Shown: one piece after another, positions 37,904 to 47,519 of the stretch
Numbering within the stretch: position 1 is the first letter of the stretch
Layout: every line of letters starts with the position of its first letter
Source of the DNA: Candidatus Aenigmatarchaeota archaeon
Lineage (GTDB): Archaea; Aenigmatarchaeota; Aenigmatarchaeia; CG10238-14
Direction of reading: 5' to 3'
NCBI GenBank assembly: GCA_030018415.1
Contig: JASEGC010000001.1
Coordinates: 407,033 to 471,032, forward strand
Length of the DNA stretch: 64,000 nucleotides
Translations under genes and position numbers: made by a program
Notes under the pieces: model-generated
Told to the model about the DNA's origin: nothing
Database searches by the model: none
The model's input: the letters and a program-made list of their open reading frames with translations, nothing else

Positions 37904-37989
37904 TGCGGGAGGTGGGATTTGAACCCACGAAGGCACTAAGCCACTGACTCCTGAAGCCAGCCCTTTAGACCAGACTTAGGTACCCCTGC
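37904..37989 (-). tRNA. tRNA-Leu(CAG), class II, no intron
   Basis: Minus strand reads GCAGGGG-TA-...-CTGGC-TTCAGGA-GTCAG, long variable arm GGC-TTAGT-GCC, then GTGGG-TTCAAAT-CCCAC-CTCCCGC-A. One A3:C70 mismatch in the acceptor stem. Confidence 0.85.
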
Positions 37990-40056: not shown

Positions 40057-40123
40057 GTCTTTAAAACTAACTGTAAAAAGATTTAAAACCTTCTAATTGA
40101 GTAGAAATTAATTGAGTGATACT

Positions 40124-43100
40124 ATGAAGCAAAACTTACTCGTCCTTGACGTGGACTATATCGTCGAAGGAAACAAAGCTATAACAAGGCTTTTTTGCAA
40201 AGACGAAAAAGGTAAAACAGCCCTTGTTATGGATTCTAATTTCGAACCTTATTTTTACGTTATGCCAACTAAAGGAACTCTTGAAAAATTGAAGAAAAAA
40301 ATAGAAGGACTTGACACAAAAAACTTAGAAGCGAAAATCCTGAGGGTAGAGACTGTTGAAAAGAATTGGATGAACGAAGAAACAAAGCTGATTAAAGTTA
40401 CCATCGATAACCCTAGGAGGATTCCAGATGTGAGGAATGCGATAAAAGACTGGAAAGAAGTAGAAGAAACTTACGAGTATAACATCACCTATTACCGCAG
40501 GTACATGATAGATAAACAAATCAAACCAATGGGTTGGGTCGAAGTAGAAGGAGAATTAAAAGAGAGCAACGGATACCAAGTCGATAGAATCATCGAGGCC
40601 AGTTCTGTCAAAGCTACAGACATGGAAAAAGATATCGATTTCAAAGTCTTAGCTTTCGACACAGAGTTCGTCGAAGAAGATGGGAAATCAAAGCTCATCA
40701 TGCTCAGCCTAGTTTTCGATGGAAAATACAAGAGAGTCTTAACTAGCTGCGACTGGAAGGATAAACCGAATTATGTCGAGGTTGTAAGAGATGAGAAAGA
40801 GATCATCCAAAGATTCATGGATATAGTTAAGGAAAAAGACCCAGATTTCATAGTCGGTTACAATTCTGACGGTTTTGACATCCCAAAGATAAAGGATAGA
40901 GCTACGGTATACAAGATGCCTTTGAAGTTGGGAAGAGATAATACCCCTGTCCATGTTGTCAGAAGAGGAAGGATCAGTTCTGCAAAAACTAAGGGAAGGG
41001 TACATATCGATTTGTTCAATTTCATTGATCACATTCTATCTGCTTCTATGCGTAGCGAGGTTTTAACTTTAGATGAAGTTGCTCAAGAATTGCTTGGAAT
41101 TGGAAAGAGGAAAATGAAATACAAGGAAATGGTTGAGATATGGAGCAAAAAAGAACAATTAGGAAGGCTTGCTGAATATTCGCTTTGGGATTCGGAGTTG
41201 ACGCTGAAATTAGCTGAGCATATATTGCCACAGATATTTTCGATAAGCAGGTTAACTGGTTTGCTGCCCTTCGATGCTTCGAGAAATACATACTCTCAAC
41301 TGATTGAGGCATTCTTGATGAGAAGGGCTTTTACAGATAATGTCTTGATTCCAAACAAGCCAAAAACCGAAGAGATAGAGAGAAGAAGGATGGCTCCTGT
41401 TTATAAGGGAGCGATAGTAATCGAGCCTAAAAAAGGAATTCATTCAGATATTTTAGTTTTCGATTTCAGGAGTCTTCCTCCTTGGGAAAAAACTTACGTG
41501 AAAGACCCAGCTGGCTTTATAAAAGTAGTGGAGATAGGCAATTTTGTAGAAAGGTTCCAGAAGAACGGAAAAGTGATCAGAGAAAGCAGAAGCCTTATAA
41601 CTGAATTAAATGGCTGGAAAGCCCTTACTTTCGATGAAGAGAAAAACAAAGTTTGTTGGAAGCCTATTAAAGCAGTCATCAAGCATGAAATTAAATGCCC
41701 TTATTTATTGAAGATCACGACTGAACAAGGCAAACAAATAACGATAACGCCGAATCATAGCATTTTTTCCCTCGATAATGACGGAAAACTAACTCTAGTA
41801 AGAGGAGATGAATTAAGGATCGGAACGAATCTCATACTTCTGAAAAGGATTCCGGTTAGGGAAAATTTAAAGAAATTAGATGTTATGGAACTCTTATCAT
41901 CTCTTTCTCAAAAAATAACGTCAGACTTGTTGATCATTCTTCCAAGGAAGAAACTTCCTCACAAAAAAAGGCTTAAAACTTGGATGAACATCCTAAACGA
42001 ACTGAGAGGGGCCTCTTCGTTAGAAGAGTTGCGCGAGAGGCTTAAGTATCATAGGGCAACGATTAGGAAGAACCTTGTATTGCTGAGAAGGAAGGGATTG
42101 ATAGATTACAGAAATTATAGTGGAATAAAACTCCTTCAAGAAGGAGAGAATTATTTGAAGTTTGTTCTAAACCTTAGACCAACGAGAAAGCGAGGGTTTC
42201 TGCAAGCAAGGTTTAACGACATTAAAAACATTAACGTACCGGAGAAGTTAAAGAAAGACTTATTCCTTAAACAATCAAGAGGAAGATGGAAGAGGATTCT
42301 ACCTTGTGTATTAGAGTTAAACCGTAATACTTGTTGGAGTTTTGGAATTTACGTAGCAGAGGGTTGGATGACTAAACATTCGAGGATCTATTTTTCCACT
42401 TCGGATGAACTCATCAAAAATAGACTGTTAAGAACCCTCTCTTACTTCGAACCGAGTGAATATAAGGATGGGAAGGGTTTTGAAATTTCCATCTCGAACA
42501 AGCCCTTTGCTCTTCTGCTCATCAAACTTTTTGGGCATAATTCCCATCATAAGCATCTTAATCCTTTGCTCTTACAGTTACAGAAAAACCTGAAATTAAA
42601 GTTAATAGAAGGAATGATAGATGGTGATGGCTCTATTGGAGAAACGAAATTTAAATACACCTCTATCTCTGAGAGGTTGATCGATGACTTGAATTTATTA
42701 CTTCTCTCGTTGAGTGTGGGAAGAACATCTTTCATAAGTTCCGGAAAAATAAAGAACCTTTACGTTTACCAGTCACTTGGAAAGATAAAGATAAGAAAAG
42801 GTGTAAGGGAGAGTCATCCACTCTATCTCATCCCAAGGAATTATGTAGAGGATCATATAACATCAACTCTTAAAAATGCACATCGAGGTTCACGAATCGA
42901 TATTCAGAAAGTTGCAGAAAATCTAGTAATCAATGGATGTTTTCCCGAAAAATTAAAATTCTTCTTTGGAAATTGTGGTTTAGAACAGATTAAAAAAATC
43001 GAGAGAATTAAGTATAACGGTTGGGTTTATGATATTTCTGTGAAAGATACTGAAAAATTCTTCGCTGGGAATGGTCTGATATTAGTACATAACTCGTTGT

Positions 43101-43546
43101 ACCCCACGATAATCGTTTCCCACAATATTTCTCCAGAAACTCTTAATTGTGAGCACTCAGAATGTAAAGAAAAAAATAAAGTTCCCGAAAGCAAATGGCA
43201 TTTTTGCACCAGAAAGGAGGGCTTCATACCTAAACATATAAGAGACCTAATCGAAACGAGGAAGAAAATAAAGGAAAAGATGAAAGAGGTTAGAAAGGAT
43301 TCGGTGGAATGGAAGCGGCTGGACAATGAGCAGTATGCTCTAAAAATTTTAGCCAACGCGAGCTATGGTTTTATGGGATATATAGCCGCTAAATGGTATT
43401 GTCGGGAGTGTGCAAGCGCAACTGCGACATTTGGAAGAGCTTATATAACCAAGGTAATAGAGATGGCAAAAGCAAGTGGATTTAAAATTTTGTATGCTGA
43501 CACCGATTCTTGCATGGTAACTATAGAAAAAAGGGGGAGAAAATGA
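40124..43546 (+). CDS. polB: family B DNA polymerase, N-terminal polypeptide (exonuclease plus palm motifs A-C), contains an intein
   Basis: Exo motifs LAFDTEF, YNSDGFDIPKI and YSLWDSELT. Motif A DFR|intein|SLYPTII. Motif B KILANASYGF. Motif C ILYADTDS. Stops 11 codons after motif C. The ATG at 40124 is preferred over the TTG at 40112. Confidence 0.9.
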   Translation: MKQNLLVLDVDYIVEGNKAITRLFCKDEKGKTALVMDSNFEPYFYVMPTKGTLEKLKKKIEGLDTKNLEAKILRVETVEKNWMNEETKLIKVTIDNPRRIPDVRNAIKDWKEVEETYEYNITYYRRYMIDKQIKPMGWVEVEGELKESNGYQVDRIIEASSVKATDMEKDIDFKVLAFDTEFVEEDGKSKLIMLSLVFDGKYKRVLTSCDWKDKPNYVEVVRDEKEIIQRFMDIVKEKDPDFIVGYNSDGFDIPKIKDRATVYKMPLKLGRDNTPVHVVRRGRISSAKTKGRVHIDLFNFIDHILSASMRSEVLTLDEVAQELLGIGKRKMKYKEMVEIWSKKEQLGRLAEYSLWDSELTLKLAEHILPQIFSISRLTGLLPFDASRNTYSQLIEAFLMRRAFTDNVLIPNKPKTEEIERRRMAPVYKGAIVIEPKKGIHSDILVFDFRSLPPWEKTYVKDPAGFIKVVEIGNFVERFQKNGKVIRESRSLITELNGWKALTFDEEKNKVCWKPIKAVIKHEIKCPYLLKITTEQGKQITITPNHSIFSLDNDGKLTLVRGDELRIGTNLILLKRIPVRENLKKLDVMELLSSLSQKITSDLLIILPRKKLPHKKRLKTWMNILNELRGASSLEELRERLKYHRATIRKNLVLLRRKGLIDYRNYSGIKLLQEGENYLKFVLNLRPTRKRGFLQARFNDIKNINVPEKLKKDLFLKQSRGRWKRILPCVLELNRNTCWSFGIYVAEGWMTKHSRIYFSTSDELIKNRLLRTLSYFEPSEYKDGKGFEISISNKPFALLLIKLFGHNSHHKHLNPLLLQLQKNLKLKLIEGMIDGDGSIGETKFKYTSISERLIDDLNLLLLSLSVGRTSFISSGKIKNLYVYQSLGKIKIRKGVRESHPLYLIPRNYVEDHITSTLKNAHRGSRIDIQKVAENLVINGCFPEKLKFFFGNCGLEQIKKIERIKYNGWVYDISVKDTEKFFAGNGLILVHNSLYPTIIVSHNISPETLNCEHSECKEKNKVPESKWHFCTRKEGFIPKHIRDLIETRKKIKEKMKEVRKDSVEWKRLDNEQYALKILANASYGFMGYIAAKWYCRECASATATFGRAYITKVIEMAKASGFKILYADTDSCMVTIEKRGRK
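41471..43093 (+). mobile_element. intein (541 aa) with LAGLIDADG endonuclease domain, inserted in PolB motif A
   Basis: Begins with Ser after VFDFR and ends ...LILVHN before SLYPTII. Block B is TPNHSIF. LAGLIDADG motifs are FGIYVAEGW and LIEGMIDGDGS. Confidence 0.85.
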
Positions 43547-43863
43547 ATTGGAAAGAATTTTTAAAACCAGACTGGAGAAAAATCCTAGTTTTCGTGATTT
43601 CAATAATCATGGGCATTGTTGTTACTCATCCCTTAATCTACCCAGAATACTCTTATTCTTTCCCTTTCCTTCCATTACCTTTTGAGACTGTAGAGATAAG
43701 AGCTGTCCCCTGCCCTCCTGGTGCCCATGAACGTATACCAGGCGTAATACCAGATTGTATGGAAAGTGTTATCATTCTCCAGAATATTCTATTAAATCTT
43801 GTTAGTTATTATCTCATCTCCTGTCTCATAGTTTGGATTTACGATAAGGTGAGGAAGAAATGA
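43543..43863 (+). CDS. small membrane protein (106 aa) occupying the gap between the two PolB polypeptide genes
   Basis: ATGA overlaps at both ends: ATG 43543 overlaps the PolB-N TGA at 43544..43546, and its own TGA at 43861..43863 overlaps the PolB-C ATG at 43860. Two hydrophobic helices flank a Cys/Pro-rich loop (VPCPPGAHERIPGVIPDC). Confidence 0.5.
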   Translation: MNWKEFLKPDWRKILVFVISIIMGIVVTHPLIYPEYSYSFPFLPLPFETVEIRAVPCPPGAHERIPGVIPDCMESVIILQNILLNLVSYYLISCLIVWIYDKVRKK

Positions 43864-44555
43864 AGAAAAGAGAGCAATTAATTAAAAAGGCTGAAGAATT
43901 TATAGAAAAAGTTAACGAACAACTTCCAGGAATAATTGAACTAGAATTCAGAGACCTGTATGAAGGGGGGATATTTGTAGCAAGAAGGGAAAAAGAAGTT
44001 GGAGCGAAGAAAAGATATGCTCTAATTGATTATCAAGGGAATTTAGAAGTCAGAGGATTCGAAGCTATAAGAAGAGATTGGTGCCAGTTAAGCAAGGACA
44101 TACAAAGAAAAGTTCTGACTATAATCCTTAGAGATAAAGACCCTGCTAAAGCCGTTCAACTAGTCAGAGAAACAATTAAAAAAATAAAAAGTGGGGATGT
44201 GAAGTTGGAAGACCTAACGATTTTTGAACAGATAACAAGGCCTCTATCTTCTTACGAACAGATAGGACCGCACGTTAAGGCAGCTCAGAAATCAAAGGCC
44301 AAGGGCAGACTTGTGGGCGAGGGTAGTGTCATCGGTTTTGTCATAGTCAAAGGTTCGGGTAGTATTTCAGATCGTGCCATGCCGGTTGAAGACGTAAAAG
44401 AAGGAGAGTACGACCCAGAATATTATATCAACAACCAAGTCTTACCAGCAGCGATGCGCGTTCTACAGGCTTTAGAGATAACAGAACAACAAGTTTTATC
44501 TGGAAGAGTCCAGGCTAAGTTAGGAGAATGGTTTAAAAAAGTTAACTACAAGTAA
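43860..44555 (+). CDS. polB: family B DNA polymerase, C-terminal polypeptide (thumb domain)
   Basis: EFIEKVNEQLPGIIELEFRDLYEGGIFV...KKRYALID...VRGFEAIRRDWC...ITRPLSSYEQIGPHVKAA...YYINNQVLPA aligns colinearly with the region after motif C of archaeal PolB. Confidence 0.85.
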   Translation: MKKREQLIKKAEEFIEKVNEQLPGIIELEFRDLYEGGIFVARREKEVGAKKRYALIDYQGNLEVRGFEAIRRDWCQLSKDIQRKVLTIILRDKDPAKAVQLVRETIKKIKSGDVKLEDLTIFEQITRPLSSYEQIGPHVKAAQKSKAKGRLVGEGSVIGFVIVKGSGSISDRAMPVEDVKEGEYDPEYYINNQVLPAAMRVLQALEITEQQVLSGRVQAKLGEWFKKVNYK

Positions 44556-44587
44556 TTAAATCTCATTCCTCTCTTGGCTGTGGTTTT

Positions 44588-44788
44588 TTACACAGAGAAT
44601 TTTTTCACTAGTCCATAAAGAATTATCAACAAACCCATCACTGTGATCGCTGAGACAAAGCCATCTAAATTCGTGCCAAAGTACATCCATATCATTCCAA
44701 AAAGGAATAGCCAAAAACCACGTATAATTTTTTTATTAGCGTAGGCTAGTTTTTCTTCCTTTGTCATCTTTTTCAATGGTTTTGACAT
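44588..44788 (-). CDS. small membrane protein (66 aa)
   Basis: Two hydrophobic helices. No family assigned. Confidence 0.35.
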   Translation of the reverse strand: MSKPLKKMTKEEKLAYANKKIIRGFWLFLFGMIWMYFGTNLDGFVSAITVMGLLIILYGLVKKFSV

Positions 44789-44921: not shown

Positions 44922-45815
44922 ATGGAAAAAGAAATTCTGGAGAAATATGAAAAGGCAGGGAAAATAAACCAAGAAGTTAAGATGTTCGCTAGAGAACAGT
45001 TAAAGCCAGGTGTGAAAGTTCTGGACTTGGCTGAAAAAATCGAGAAGATGATAATAGATAAAGGTGGAGGTATAGCTTTTCCAGTTAACATCTCTTTGAA
45101 TGACATTGCTGCCCATTACACTCCGGATATAGACGATACTCTCACTTTGAAAGATGGTGACCTGGTTAAAGTGGATATAGGTGTTCATGTCGACGGTTTC
45201 ATCGCAGATTCGGCTTTCTCTGTCAGGCTCGGGGAAAAATCTGACATACTCATAAAAGCAGCAGAGGATGCGTTGGAACAATTCATAAAAGAGATAAGGC
45301 CAGGAAAAACTGTTGATGAAATGTCTAAGTTGATAGAGGATGTAGTTATGAGCTACGGTGTAAACCCAGTAAGAAACCTTGCGGGACATTCTTTGGAAGA
45401 ATACACACAACATGGCGGACTATCGATTCCAAACGGTCATATTCCCTCAAAAGAAGAAATAAAAGAAGGACAAGTTTTAGGGATGGAAGTCTTTACGACT
45501 CATGGCGAAGGCTTGGTTAAGGAATCTTTCCCAACTTTAATTTACATGTTGATACAACCAAAACCAGTAAGATTGAGAGAATCCAGAAAAATATTACAAC
45601 TTGCTGTGGACAAATTCAAAACTTTACCCTTTGCTAGAAGATGGTTAAAAGGAATAGGAAGTACAGTCATGTTACAGTTAGCGTTGAAAGAATTGGTCGA
45701 CAGGGAGGTTTTGATTGAGTACCCACCCTTGAGGGAGAGGTCGAATAGTTTGACTGCTCAAGCTGAAGAAACTATAATTGTCTTGGATAAGCCTATCATC
45801 ACTACAAGATCATAG
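44922..45815 (+). CDS. map: methionine aminopeptidase, type 2
   Basis: FPVNISLNDIAAHYTP, VKVDIGVHVDGFIADSA and GHSLEEY. 297 aa. Confidence 0.9.
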   Translation: MEKEILEKYEKAGKINQEVKMFAREQLKPGVKVLDLAEKIEKMIIDKGGGIAFPVNISLNDIAAHYTPDIDDTLTLKDGDLVKVDIGVHVDGFIADSAFSVRLGEKSDILIKAAEDALEQFIKEIRPGKTVDEMSKLIEDVVMSYGVNPVRNLAGHSLEEYTQHGGLSIPNGHIPSKEEIKEGQVLGMEVFTTHGEGLVKESFPTLIYMLIQPKPVRLRESRKILQLAVDKFKTLPFARRWLKGIGSTVMLQLALKELVDREVLIEYPPLRERSNSLTAQAEETIIVLDKPIITTRS

Positions 45816-46925: not shown

Positions 46926-47519
46926 ATGTATGTTGTTGGAATCGACTTGGCAGGAAGCGAAAAGAGACAGACGGGATTCTGTATCCTTGACGGGATGAAG
47001 GCTTATACTAATATCCTCCACACTGACAAGGAAATAATCGACAAAATCGAAGAATTGAAGCCAGATATCGTAGCAATAGATGCTCCGCTCAGTCTACCTA
47101 AAGGAAGAAAATCGATAGAGGAGAGGACTAACGTTCATCTTAGAGAATGTGATAGAGAACTCTTAAAAAGAGGAATAAAATTTTTCCCTATCACTCTGGG
47201 TCCGATGAGAAAATTGACTAAAAGGGGCATAAGATTGAAAAAAATGCTGGAAAATAAAGGTTTTAGAGTCATAGAAGTATATCCTGGAGGAGCTCAAGAC
47301 ATCTTAAAAATCCCCAGAAAGCAAAGGGGGTTAGATAAACTTAAAAGGGGTTTGGAGAAGTTGAAAATTAGTGGTTTGACCCCGAAAATGACTAGTCATG
47401 AGTTGGATGCTATTACTTCTGCTTTTGTCGGGAAATTGTTCTTAGAAGGAAGGTCGGAGACCTTAGGTGACCAGAAGAGAGGGATCGTCATGCCTAAACC
47501 GATTATTAAGGATTTTTGA
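46926..47519 (+). CDS. DUF429-like predicted RNase H-fold nuclease
   Basis: MYVVGIDLAGSEKRQTGFCIL...IVAIDAPLSLP is the pattern of the DUF429/COG2410 family. Confidence 0.5.
   Translation: MYVVGIDLAGSEKRQTGFCILDGMKAYTNILHTDKEIIDKIEELKPDIVAIDAPLSLPKGRKSIEERTNVHLRECDRELLKRGIKFFPITLGPMRKLTKRGIRLKKMLENKGFRVIEVYPGGAQDILKIPRKQRGLDKLKRGLEKLKISGLTPKMTSHELDAITSAFVGKLFLEGRSETLGDQKRGIVMPKPIIKDF

What the first reader, a model, noticed from the sequence alone, without database searches (positions are those of the whole stretch)
43490..43900. PolB gene split after motif C by a translationally coupled small membrane-protein ORF
The family B polymerase is encoded as two polypeptides. The N part ends ...ILYADTDSCMVTIEKRGRK*. 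The C part resumes MKKREQLIKKAEEFIEKVNEQLPG... with no polymerase sequence missing.

The 313-nt gap is filled by a 106-aa ORF with two hydrophobic helices. Its ATG overlaps the upstream TGA (AAATGAA, 43543) and its TGA overlaps the downstream ATG (AAATGAA, 43860). The near-identical junction strings AGAAAATGAA and AGAAATGAAG look like a short duplication.

Split PolB genes are known (Methanothermobacter; Nanoarchaeum with a split intein). A split created by an inserted, coupled foreign ORF is unusual, and the same gene also hosts an intein in motif A.
Basis: partly seen in the sequence, partly recalled or inferred. Interest (0 to 1): 0.65.

Follow-up and report, generated by a model that had tools for sequence, protein, structure and literature searches.

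The report
Split archaeal DNA polymerase with passenger gene
The main DNA-copying enzyme of this tiny archaeon really is encoded in two pieces with a small membrane-protein gene wedged between them. Related genomes show the same break point holding a selfish endonuclease gene, nothing, or other small genes, so this is a gene caught at several stages of coming apart.

Summary
PolB-N (40112-43546, with a 541-aa intein in motif A), a 106-aa two-helix membrane ORF (43543-43863) and PolB-C (43860-44555) lie in three frames, joined by ATGA stop/start overlaps. No polymerase sequence is missing.

The break is not peculiar to this genome and was probably not made by the small ORF.

- Most Aenigmarchaeota relatives have a continuous PolB.
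- About 35-40 protein clusters are stand-alone C halves that start at the same loop.
- The characterised gaps hold an intact or frameshifted free-standing LAGLIDADG homing endonuclease gene, 29 nt, 233 nt of non-coding DNA, or one to three genes of the same small-ORF family (L127, L133, L074).
- In L126 an isochorismatase-family gene lies directly upstream of PolB-C.
- The Methanobacteriales split PolB breaks in the same loop.
- Split alleles in different PolB lineages share a sequence signature next to the junction. This fits lateral spread by homing, or convergence.

The small ORF belongs to a large unnamed family (2,675 clusters). Its conserved 3' end carries a Shine-Dalgarno-like motif plus ATGA.

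The proposed short duplication at the junctions is not supported. Verdict: a real feature and a new variant of known split polymerases and endonuclease-fractured genes. Interest is moderate to high.

The parts
40112..43546 (+). PolB N-terminal cistron. It is 1144 aa with the intein and about 603 aa of extein: exonuclease domain, fingers, and palm through motif C. The start is TTG 40112 or ATG 40124.
   Evidence: DNA_pol_B_exo1 and DNA_pol_B to profile position 237/453; the Exo I-III motifs and motifs A, B and C are present.
41471..43093 (+). Intein of 541 aa (PolB-N aa 454-994) inserted in motif A (DFR|S...VHN|SLYPTII). It contains LAGLIDADG and HTH regions.
   Evidence: Pfam Intein_splicing 3.5e-21, LAGLIDADG_3, TIGR01445 and TIGR01443.
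43493..43510 (+). Motif C (YADTDS). The break lies 11 codons downstream, in the loop after the motif C hairpin.
43533..43546 (+). 5' junction: the purine-rich Shine-Dalgarno-like GGGGGAG, then ATGA, which is the PolB-N stop overlapping the small-ORF start.
   Evidence: A function in translational coupling is inferred.
43543..43863 (+). 106-aa small membrane protein of the 'MNWK' family. N-terminus MNWKEFLKPDWRKI, TM1 about aa 14-32, variable Cys-containing loop, TM2 about aa 76-100, C-terminus YLISCLIVWIYDKVRKK.
   Evidence: No Pfam, NCBIfam or PHROG hit.
43847..43863 (+). 3' junction: AGGTGAGG (Shine-Dalgarno-like, 43847-43854), then AAGAA and ATGA, which is the small-ORF stop overlapping the PolB-C start. 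This stretch is the conserved 3' end of the family (GAT AAG GTG AGG AAG AAA TGA).
43860..44555 (+). PolB C-terminal cistron of 231 aa: the last palm helix and strands with KxY, plus the thumb.
44578..44605 (+). Terminator-like hairpin plus T-run just after PolB-C. No such site lies between the three cistrons.
   Evidence: This is a consensus scan only.

Best explanation
This is a functional three-cistron operon, polB-N (with intein) / small membrane protein / polB-C, in an Aenigmarchaeota-type DPANN archaeon.

How it most likely works (inferred):
- The three ORFs are co-transcribed.
- Ribosomes that terminate at each UGA restart at the overlapping AUG, helped by the purine-rich Shine-Dalgarno-like motifs upstream. 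PolB-C is therefore made in step with PolB-N.
- The intein splices itself out of PolB-N.
- The roughly 600-aa N subunit and the 231-aa C subunit then assemble without a covalent link into the polymerase, as shown biochemically for the Methanothermobacter split PolB and for phage 25 gp43A/B.

What comparison shows:
- The break is a polymorphic allele in this phylum, at the same loop as the Methanobacteriales break.
- Its intercistronic gap acts as a landing pad for other genes.
- The only occupant with a known way of spreading is a free-standing double-motif LAGLIDADG homing endonuclease gene.
- Homing with co-conversion of flanking sequence best explains three things: the patchy distribution of the split, its nesting among continuous alleles, and the shared junction signature.

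In the window the gap is occupied by a member of the MNWK small-membrane-protein family. This gene is a passenger. Its native 3' end (Shine-Dalgarno-like motif plus ATGA) suits it to keep PolB-C translationally coupled.

The data cannot decide whether the endonuclease made the first break or colonised an existing one.
For: Shown:
- Anatomy and intact motifs.
- Stand-alone C halves of about 226 aa dominate the closest protein clusters.
- 58 GTDB and 55 JGI loci show mostly continuous PolB, with split alleles interspersed.
- In the full-length NJ tree split alleles are nested among continuous ones. L067-HEG groups with L075-cont at 90% bootstrap, L011 with L009/L015 at 96%, and the window with L071-cont at 71%. 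L127 groups with L133 at 100%, and the four-taxon clade L127/L133/L016/L082 has 100% support.
- Gap contents are documented.
- The endonuclease ORFs pass the Pfam LAGLIDADG_3 threshold (about 43-47 bits against a cut-off of 22.5). They fill about 876-888 nt of gaps of 861-943 nt (888 of 913 nt in L067). Their stop overlaps the PolB-C ATG.
- The Methanobacteriales small subunits start within about 4 residues of the same position.
- Junction signature: (L/I)IKKA occurs in 21 of 54 split C heads against 1 of 39 continuous ones.
- In sister-pair tests the 54 junction-proximal residues are on average +7.2 points more similar between split alleles, against +0.3 for 719 distal residues. For the window with L127 against L016 the values are +20.4 and -0.7.
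- C-proximal nucleotide identity is 75% for window-L127 but 60% for L127 against its sister L016.
- MNWK genes sit directly upstream of PolB-C with an ATGA overlap in the window, L127, L133 and L074.

From the literature:
- Split gp43 in T4-like phages occurs with either a seg endonuclease or an untranslated spacer, and the halves co-purify with activity. The Aeh1 nrdA gene is split by mobE (PMC2988022; PMC2677866).
- Kelman 1999, as cited in PMC4104785.
Against: - No transcript, protein or activity data exist for this organism.
- The endonuclease family is rare: only 6 proteins in 5.8 billion, against about 35-40 stand-alone C-half clusters. Most split alleles therefore lack it, and it may be a late coloniser.
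- No endonuclease remnant is detectable in the window, L127, L133 or L011 gaps.
- The junction signature could reflect convergent selection on the free subunit ends. The pairwise comparisons are not phylogenetically independent, and the trees are NJ only.
- The endonuclease clade L069/L128/L130 does not share the LIKKA signature.
- Only the 64-kb window was searched for a second polB. The rest of the roughly 610-kb contig was not seen.
Confidence: 0.72

Rival explanations
1. Insertion of the small membrane-protein gene itself broke a continuous polB in this lineage. The MNWK gene would then be the agent of the fission, perhaps as a mobile cassette.
For: - MNWK-family genes occupy the gap in two PolB lineages that each have continuous sisters.
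- The family is multicopy and forms ATGA-chained tandem arrays.
- The PolB-N tail in L133 (AAGGTGAAGAAGAAATGA...KVKKK*) resembles an MNWK 3' end.
- The endonuclease is rare.
Against: - The same loop is broken in alleles with no MNWK gene: L134, L011, L067, L069, L128, L130, L132 and the Methanobacteriales.
- The family has no recombinase, no terminal inverted repeats and no target-site duplication.
- The other family members examined are ordinary free-standing genes away from polB.
- The window shares its junction signature with endonuclease-bearing and empty-gap alleles.
Confidence: 0.13
2. The small protein is a functional partner rather than a passenger. It could be a selected translational-coupling adaptor for PolB-C. 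Alternatively it could be a membrane factor whose co-expression with the polymerase matters.
For: - MNWK genes recur immediately upstream of PolB-C with an identical ATGA overlap in four assemblies.
- The conserved family 3' end encodes AAGGTGAGG plus ATGA.
- The copy in the window keeps both consensus ends intact.
Against: - Other split alleles do without it, using the endonuclease stop overlap or a bare Shine-Dalgarno motif instead.
- The middle of the protein is not conserved between the window and L127 or L133 (30-38% identity, concentrated at the conserved ends).
- Most family members are unlinked to replication genes.
Confidence: 0.1
3. The two halves are rejoined after transcription or translation, by an intron (group I or bulge-helix-bulge) or by split-intein trans-splicing. 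The mature polymerase would then be a single chain.
For: - LAGLIDADG genes are typical of archaeal and group I introns and of inteins.
- The N. equitans PolB is rejoined by a split intein.
Against: - No Rfam intron family reaches threshold in the window.
- The two junctions do not pair better than shuffled controls in any of 10 loci (z from -0.6 to +1.5), and both junctions are purine-rich.
- The ORFs fill the gaps, leaving no room for a ribozyme.
- The N tail is only 11 residues past DTDS and the C head starts directly with polymerase sequence. There is no Hint or intein match there.
- In N. equitans and L063 the intein sits at a different site, before TDS.
Confidence: 0.03
4. It is an artefact or a decaying gene: an assembly chimera, or a pseudogenised polB backed up by another polymerase.
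For: The sequence is a single metagenome-derived contig. The rest of the genome was not inspected.
Against: - The same architecture occurs in independent assemblies from other samples.
- All catalytic motifs are intact, the junctions are clean, and both halves are 70-80% identical to relatives.
- The small ORF keeps its family consensus.
Confidence: 0.02

Closest known systems
Split B-type DNA polymerase of Methanobacteriales (Methanothermobacter thermautotrophicus PolB; Kelman, Pietrokovski & Hurwitz 1999, cited in PMC4104785)
   Same: The catalytic subunit is encoded as a large N polypeptide and a C polypeptide of about 220-230 aa, without intein halves. The break lies in the same loop after motif C: the small subunits start within about 4 residues of the window's PolB-C. 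These small subunits are the next-best relatives of the C half outside DPANN.
   Different: In Methanobacteriales the halves are not adjacent: there is no N-half match within 6 kb of the C half in the loci examined, and the split appears fixed in the order. Here the halves are adjacent and the allele is polymorphic within the phylum. The gap carries passenger genes, and PolB-N also has an intein. The published origin idea, erratic intein excision (PMC4104785), does not fit this site, which is not an intein insertion point.
Endonuclease-fractured genes without inteins in T4-like phages: gp43 of Aeromonas phage 25 (seg endonuclease) and 44RR (untranslated spacer), and nrdA of Aeh1 (mobE)
   Same: A family B polymerase is cut into two cistrons that stay adjacent. 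Among relatives the gap holds either a free-standing homing endonuclease gene or non-coding DNA. There is the same open question of whether the endonuclease made or colonised the split (PMC2988022; PMC2677866).
   Different: The host is cellular (archaeal), not a phage. The endonuclease is LAGLIDADG, not GIY-YIG or HNH. In the window the gap has no endonuclease but a small membrane-protein gene. I could not compare the break position with the gp43A/B break.
Fractured genes with split inteins (Dassa et al. 2009) and the Nanoarchaeum equitans split PolB
   Same: An essential replication gene is encoded in two parts. A homing endonuclease is associated with the break in some members.
   Different: No split-intein halves flank the break here. 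N. equitans breaks inside motif C, before TDS, with intein pieces and non-adjacent halves. The halves here must associate non-covalently.
Ordinary archaeal PolB inteins (sites in motifs A and C)
   Same: PolB-N carries a standard intein containing a LAGLIDADG domain in motif A. The free-standing endonucleases show weak similarity to the endonuclease domains of motif C-site inteins (22-37% identity, E 6e-5 to 4e-3) and to PI-PfuI (E 0.003).
   Different: The gap ORFs are out of frame with both halves. They lack Hint domains and cannot splice.

Membership tests
Two-subunit (split) archaeal PolB, Methanobacteriales type | The catalytic core is encoded by two ORFs with no polymerase sequence missing and no intein halves at the break. 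| tested here: met
   Pfam profile 237/240 of 453; TIGR00592 961/964 of 1176; gap-free alignment to 4flt; no Hint match at the tails.
Two-subunit (split) archaeal PolB, Methanobacteriales type | The break lies between motif C and the KxY/thumb region, at the same position as the Methanobacteriales small-subunit start. | tested here: met
   Alignment A1: the Methanobacterium, Methanobrevibacter and Methanobacteriaceae small subunits start within about 4 residues of the window's PolB-C.
Two-subunit (split) archaeal PolB, Methanobacteriales type | The two polypeptides assemble into an active polymerase. | not testable with these tools
   Only inferred, from intact motifs and from published work on M. 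thermautotrophicus and phage 25.
Two-subunit (split) archaeal PolB, Methanobacteriales type | The halves are encoded at separate loci. | tested here: not met
   The halves are 313 nt apart on one strand in the window. The Methanobacteriales loci show no N half within 6 kb.
Genes fractured by a free-standing homing endonuclease (no intein) | A free-standing homing endonuclease gene lies between the two cistrons. | tested here: not met
   In the window the gap ORF has no nuclease domain and no similarity to the relatives' endonucleases. The feature is met in relatives L067, L069, L128 and L130, and degenerate in L132.
Genes fractured by a free-standing homing endonuclease (no intein) | Close relatives carry the uninterrupted gene, giving a sporadic distribution. 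| tested here: met
Genes fractured by a free-standing homing endonuclease (no intein) | There is evidence of homing: co-conversion of the flanks, or cleavage of the empty allele. | tested here: inconclusive
   A shared junction-proximal signature and mosaic identity profile are present. Convergence is not excluded, and cleavage is not testable here.
Split-intein fractured genes / N. equitans PolB | Intein N and C pieces at the ends of the two halves. | tested here: not met
   The N tail is 11 aa after DTDS and the C head is polymerase sequence. The intein HMMs hit only aa 454-994. Contrast L052.
RNA intron (group I/II or bulge-helix-bulge) in a protein gene | A ribozyme or a bulge-helix-bulge structure formed by the junctions. 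| tested here: not met
   No Rfam hit. Junction duplex energies are no better than shuffles. The ORFs fill the inserts.
'MNWK' small membrane-protein family (unnamed; defined here) | N-terminal MNWKEFLKPDWRKI-like motif, two hydrophobic helices, C-terminal ...SCLIVWIYDK(V/F)(R/K)KK motif, and a variable middle. | tested here: met
Intein (Hint + LAGLIDADG) in PolB motif A | An in-frame insert with N- and C-terminal splicing blocks, a terminal HN, and a nucleophile at position +1. | tested here: met
   Intein_splicing 3.5e-21; TIGR01445 and TIGR01443; S454...HN994/S995. Splicing activity was not tested.

The most novel reading that the evidence does not exclude
The break in polB is a laterally spreading 'split allele'. 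Its gap has been colonised repeatedly by MNWK genes because these genes carry a portable translational-coupling module at their 3' end (AAGGTGAGG...ATGA). The small hypervariable membrane-protein genes would then act as self-installing intercistronic adaptors, or even as agents of gene fission, in DPANN archaea. The series seen here runs from a continuous gene, to an endonuclease-filled gap, to a decayed endonuclease, to an empty gap, to captured genes, and perhaps to separated halves. On this reading it retraces how the Methanobacteriales split polymerase arose.
Probability: 0.15. Interest if true: 0.8.

Novelty: new variant of a known kind. Interest (0 to 1): 0.6.

Why it matters
Split family B polymerases have been known since 1999, but how an essential replicase survives being cut in two has remained a matter of conjecture. 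For Methanobacteriales the published idea is erratic intein excision.

Here one phylum holds the intact gene and several different states of the same break: an endonuclease-filled gap, a decayed endonuclease, an empty gap, and a gap carrying passenger genes. A locus with an unrelated gene directly upstream of PolB-C may represent separated halves. The break is in the same loop as in Methanobacteriales.

This makes the origin question testable by comparative genomics and simple biochemistry. If confirmed, it would extend the phage paradigm of genes fractured by free-standing homing endonucleases to a cellular, essential archaeal gene.

It also exposes a very large uncharacterised family of small two-helix membrane proteins. 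Their ends are near-invariant and their loops hypervariable. They are candidates for surface variation in episymbiotic DPANN archaea.

Tried and rejected
- **Target-site duplication at the junctions.** Rejected. The shared 7-mer is common, and ATGA overlaps occur at four other junctions in the window.
- **Small ORF as a decayed endonuclease or intein.** Rejected. BLAST and HMM searches found no similarity to the relatives' endonucleases, and the ORF is out of frame with both halves.
- **RNA splicing.** Rejected.
- **Second polB in the window.** None found.
- **Small-ORF homologues as a general marker of polB gaps.** Rejected. The three contexts looked up (L001, L004, L006) are unrelated to polB, and the family HMM hit only the window, L127, L133 and L074 next to PolB.
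- **Structural or family annotation of the small ORF.** Pfam, NCBIfam and PHROGs gave nothing. I did not run a fold search on a two-helix hairpin model, because any matches would be meaningless.
- **Endonuclease ancestry.** Only weak links were found, to endonuclease domains of motif C-site inteins, to a free-standing LAGLIDADG ORF in L001, and to PI-PfuI. This is not decisive.
- **Synonymous-site test for co-conversion.** It points the expected way but rests on about 40 codons per side and deep divergence. It is suggestive only.
- **First bootstrap run.** It timed out and was redone with a vectorised distance.
- **Literature.** Searches found no description of split PolB in Aenigmarchaeota or DPANN. 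The library is incomplete, so absence is not proof.
Full report
**1. What is in the window**

ORF listing and the raw sequence show three same-strand ORFs in three different frames.
- PolB-N runs 40112-43546 (1144 aa) and ends ...ILYADTDSCMVTIEKRGRK*.
- A 106-aa ORF runs 43543-43863.
- PolB-C runs 43860-44555 (231 aa) and starts MKKREQLIKKAEEF.
- Both junctions are ATGA stop/start overlaps. Purine-rich Shine-Dalgarno-like motifs lie upstream: GGGGGAG at 43533-43539 and AGGTGAGG at 43847-43854.

Nothing is missing from the polymerase.
- Pfam DNA_pol_B is matched to profile position 237 by the N part and from 240 by the C part. TIGR00592 is matched to 961 and from 964.
- The concatenated tail and head align without a gap to Pyrococcus abyssi PolB (4flt). 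This places the break in the loop just after the motif C hairpin, before the last palm helix.
- The exonuclease motifs and motifs A, B, C and KxY are intact.
- PolB-N also carries a 541-aa intein containing a LAGLIDADG domain in motif A (DFR|S...HN|SLYP).
- A terminator-like hairpin follows PolB-C, and none lies inside the operon.

**2. The small ORF is a real gene of a large unnamed family**

- It has two hydrophobic segments.
- AlphaFold2, run with 45 homologues, gives two confident helices (11-27 and 71-105) around a low-confidence loop.
- It has no Pfam, NCBIfam or PHROG match.
- It has 65 homologues in the indexed search and 2,675 representative clusters in the exhaustive profile search, 847 of them at E<=1e-10.
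- The family has a near-invariant N-terminus (MNWKEFLKPDWRKI) and C-terminus (YLISCLIVWIYDKVRKK). The middle is hypervariable in length and sequence.
- Many members are tandem fusions of two to four units. One carries a signal-peptidase domain between the conserved ends.
- The three homologues whose contexts I looked up are ordinary free-standing genes far from polB.
- At the DNA level the conserved 3' end reads GAT AAG GTG AGG AAG AAA TGA. This is a Shine-Dalgarno-like AAGGTGAGG followed by ATGA, and tandem copies are chained by that overlap.

**3. The break is a polymorphic allele, and the gap has many kinds of content**

- The closest protein clusters to PolB-C are mostly stand-alone proteins of about 226 aa, up to 82% identical. 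The next group is the small subunits of the Methanobacteriales split PolB.
- Most GTDB representatives and JGI contigs of Aenigmarchaeota nevertheless encode PolB as one continuous ORF.

Gap contents found at the same loop:

| State | Loci |
|---|---|
| Intact free-standing double-motif LAGLIDADG gene of 291-299 aa; its stop overlaps the PolB-C ATG | L067/68, L069/70, L128/129, L130/131 |
| The same gene, frameshifted into 213 + 82 aa | L132 |
| Bare 29-nt spacer with a Shine-Dalgarno motif | L134 |
| 233 nt of non-coding DNA | L011 |
| MNWK-family genes: one copy in L127; three copies plus an unrelated Cys-rich ORF in L133; a C-terminal piece at the contig edge in L074 | L127, L133, L074 |
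| PolB-C directly preceded by an isochorismatase-family gene on a short contig, so either the halves are separated or another gene was captured | L126 |

The Methanobacteriales small subunits begin within about 4 residues of the same position.

The classical motif C intein site (L063) and the N. equitans split-intein break lie before TDS. That is a different site.

**4. Distribution and mosaicism**

In an NJ tree of full-length PolB with 200 bootstraps, split alleles are nested among continuous ones.
- L067 (endonuclease) groups with L075 (continuous) at 90%.
- L011 groups with L009 and L015 at 96%.
- The window groups with L071 (continuous) at 71%.
- L127 groups with L133 at 100%, and the four-taxon clade L127/L133/L016/L082 has 100% support.

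Flanking markers (M24 peptidase, DUF429) put the window's organism close to L127, L133, L071 and L016. Its PolB, however, belongs to the other PolB group.

Split alleles share a signature next to the junction whatever their background.
- On the N side it is DTDSC(F/M); on the C side it is (L/I)IKKA(E/K)(E/K/N)F.
- The C-side motif is present in 21-25 of 54 split C heads against 1 of 39 continuous ones.
- Sister-pair comparisons give +7.2 identity points on average in the 54 junction-proximal residues, against +0.3 in 719 distal residues.
- For the window with L127 against L016 the values are +20.4 and -0.7.
- At the nucleotide level the C-proximal 42 codons of L127 are 75% identical to the window but only 60% identical to its sister L016.

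This is what co-conversion during homing would leave. It could also reflect convergence of the free subunit ends. The comparisons are not independent, so I treat it as suggestive.

The endonuclease clade L069/L128/L130 has a different C head, closer to the continuous alleles. This hints at a second invasion.

**5. Mechanism**

Shown: the anatomy, the intact motifs, the coupling signals, and the recurrence in independent assemblies.

Inferred:
- The three cistrons are co-transcribed.
- Translation restarts at each ATGA overlap.
- The intein splices out of PolB-N.
- The N and C subunits associate non-covalently. This follows the biochemistry of the Methanothermobacter enzyme and of phage 25 gp43A/B (PMC2988022; PMC4104785).

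The small membrane protein is most simply a passenger. Its native 3' end happens to provide the Shine-Dalgarno motif and the overlap that PolB-C needs.

The LAGLIDADG gene is the only element present with a known way to spread a split allele. It is rare, however: 6 proteins in the 5.8-billion-protein collection. No remnant of it is detectable in the MNWK or non-coding gaps. So it may have created the break or may only have colonised it. Edgell and colleagues describe the same ambiguity for phage gp43.

**6. Rivals**

- **The small ORF caused the split.** This is possible but disfavoured, because the same loop is broken in alleles without it and it has no mobility hallmarks.
- **RNA or protein rejoining.** Not supported. 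There are no Rfam introns, the junctions do not pair beyond shuffled controls, and there are no intein halves.
- **Chimera or pseudogene.** Unlikely, given independent assemblies with the same layout and intact motifs.
- **A functional link between the small protein and the polymerase.** This cannot be excluded but has no direct support.

**7. Comparison and novelty**

The locus works like the Methanobacteriales split PolB. It has the same break loop and no intein halves.

Its relatives match the genes fractured by free-standing endonucleases in T4-like phages.

It is not a split-intein fractured gene.

Several things were not found in the searchable literature:
- the cellular archaeal setting;
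- a LAGLIDADG free-standing endonuclease at this site;
- the coexistence of many states of one break within a phylum;
- the repeated occupancy of the gap by a hypervariable small membrane-protein family.

I rate it a new variant of a known kind, with interest about 0.6.

Noticed in passing
window 43543-43863; L001 5001-5297; L004 5001-5285; L006 3276-3635 and 5001-5300; L133 2712-2984, 2981-3232 and 3558-4004: There is a very large unnamed family of small two-helix membrane proteins ('MNWK'): 2,675 clusters at 50% identity. The N- and C-termini are near-invariant and the middle is hypervariable, often Cys-containing. Members occur in several copies per contig, in ATGA-chained tandem arrays and as fused multi-unit proteins (P0003, P0186-P0190). 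P0009 has a Peptidase_S26 domain between the two conserved ends.
   Followed up: partly
window 41471-43093: A 541-aa intein (Ser1 ... His-Asn/Ser+1) lies in PolB motif A, with LAGLIDADG_3 and HTH-like regions. None of the close relatives' PolB-N genes (549-606 aa) carries it. This one gene therefore holds two independent mobile-element-type interruptions.
   Followed up: partly
L130 5052-5151: A perfect 50-nt tandem duplication spans the PolB-N stop codon and the start of the LAGLIDADG gene. It could be a real junction duplication or an assembly artefact.
   Followed up: partly
L133 2395-4004: The PolB gap in this relative has grown to 1.6 kb. It holds an unrelated 106-aa Cys-rich membrane/secreted ORF plus three MNWK-family genes. 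The PolB-N tail there (...KVKKK*, AAGGTGAAGAAGAAATGA) resembles an MNWK 3' end.
   Followed up: partly
L126 3-227: In the closest relative by C-half identity (82%), PolB-C starts with GTG 4 nt after an isochorismatase-family gene. Either the halves have separated or yet another gene was captured. The contig is too short (1119 nt) to tell.
   Followed up: partly
window 44922-45815 and 46926-47519, against L127, L133, L071, L016 and L067: The flanking genes (M24 peptidase, DUF429) place the window closest to L127 (79% and 74%). Its PolB-N is only 53% identical to L127's but 69% to L067's, whose M24 is 52% identical. This discordance suggests lateral exchange of polB alleles or old paralogy.
   Followed up: partly
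L001 785-1588: A free-standing LAGLIDADG_3 ORF of 267 aa lies 3.4 kb from an MNWK gene. It is absent from the syntenic locus L004 and is weakly similar (28%, E 4e-6) to the polB-gap endonucleases. Free-standing LAGLIDADG genes seem to be sporadic residents of these genomes.
   Followed up: no
L063 about 3160-4511; also L089, L101 and L104: Woesearchaeota-type and other DPANN PolB genes carry an intein at the classical motif C site (YGD|...HN|TDS). That site is about 10 codons upstream of the break studied here.
   Followed up: no
window 37904-37989 (-): This tRNA gene is the only Rfam hit in the 64-kb window.
   Followed up: no
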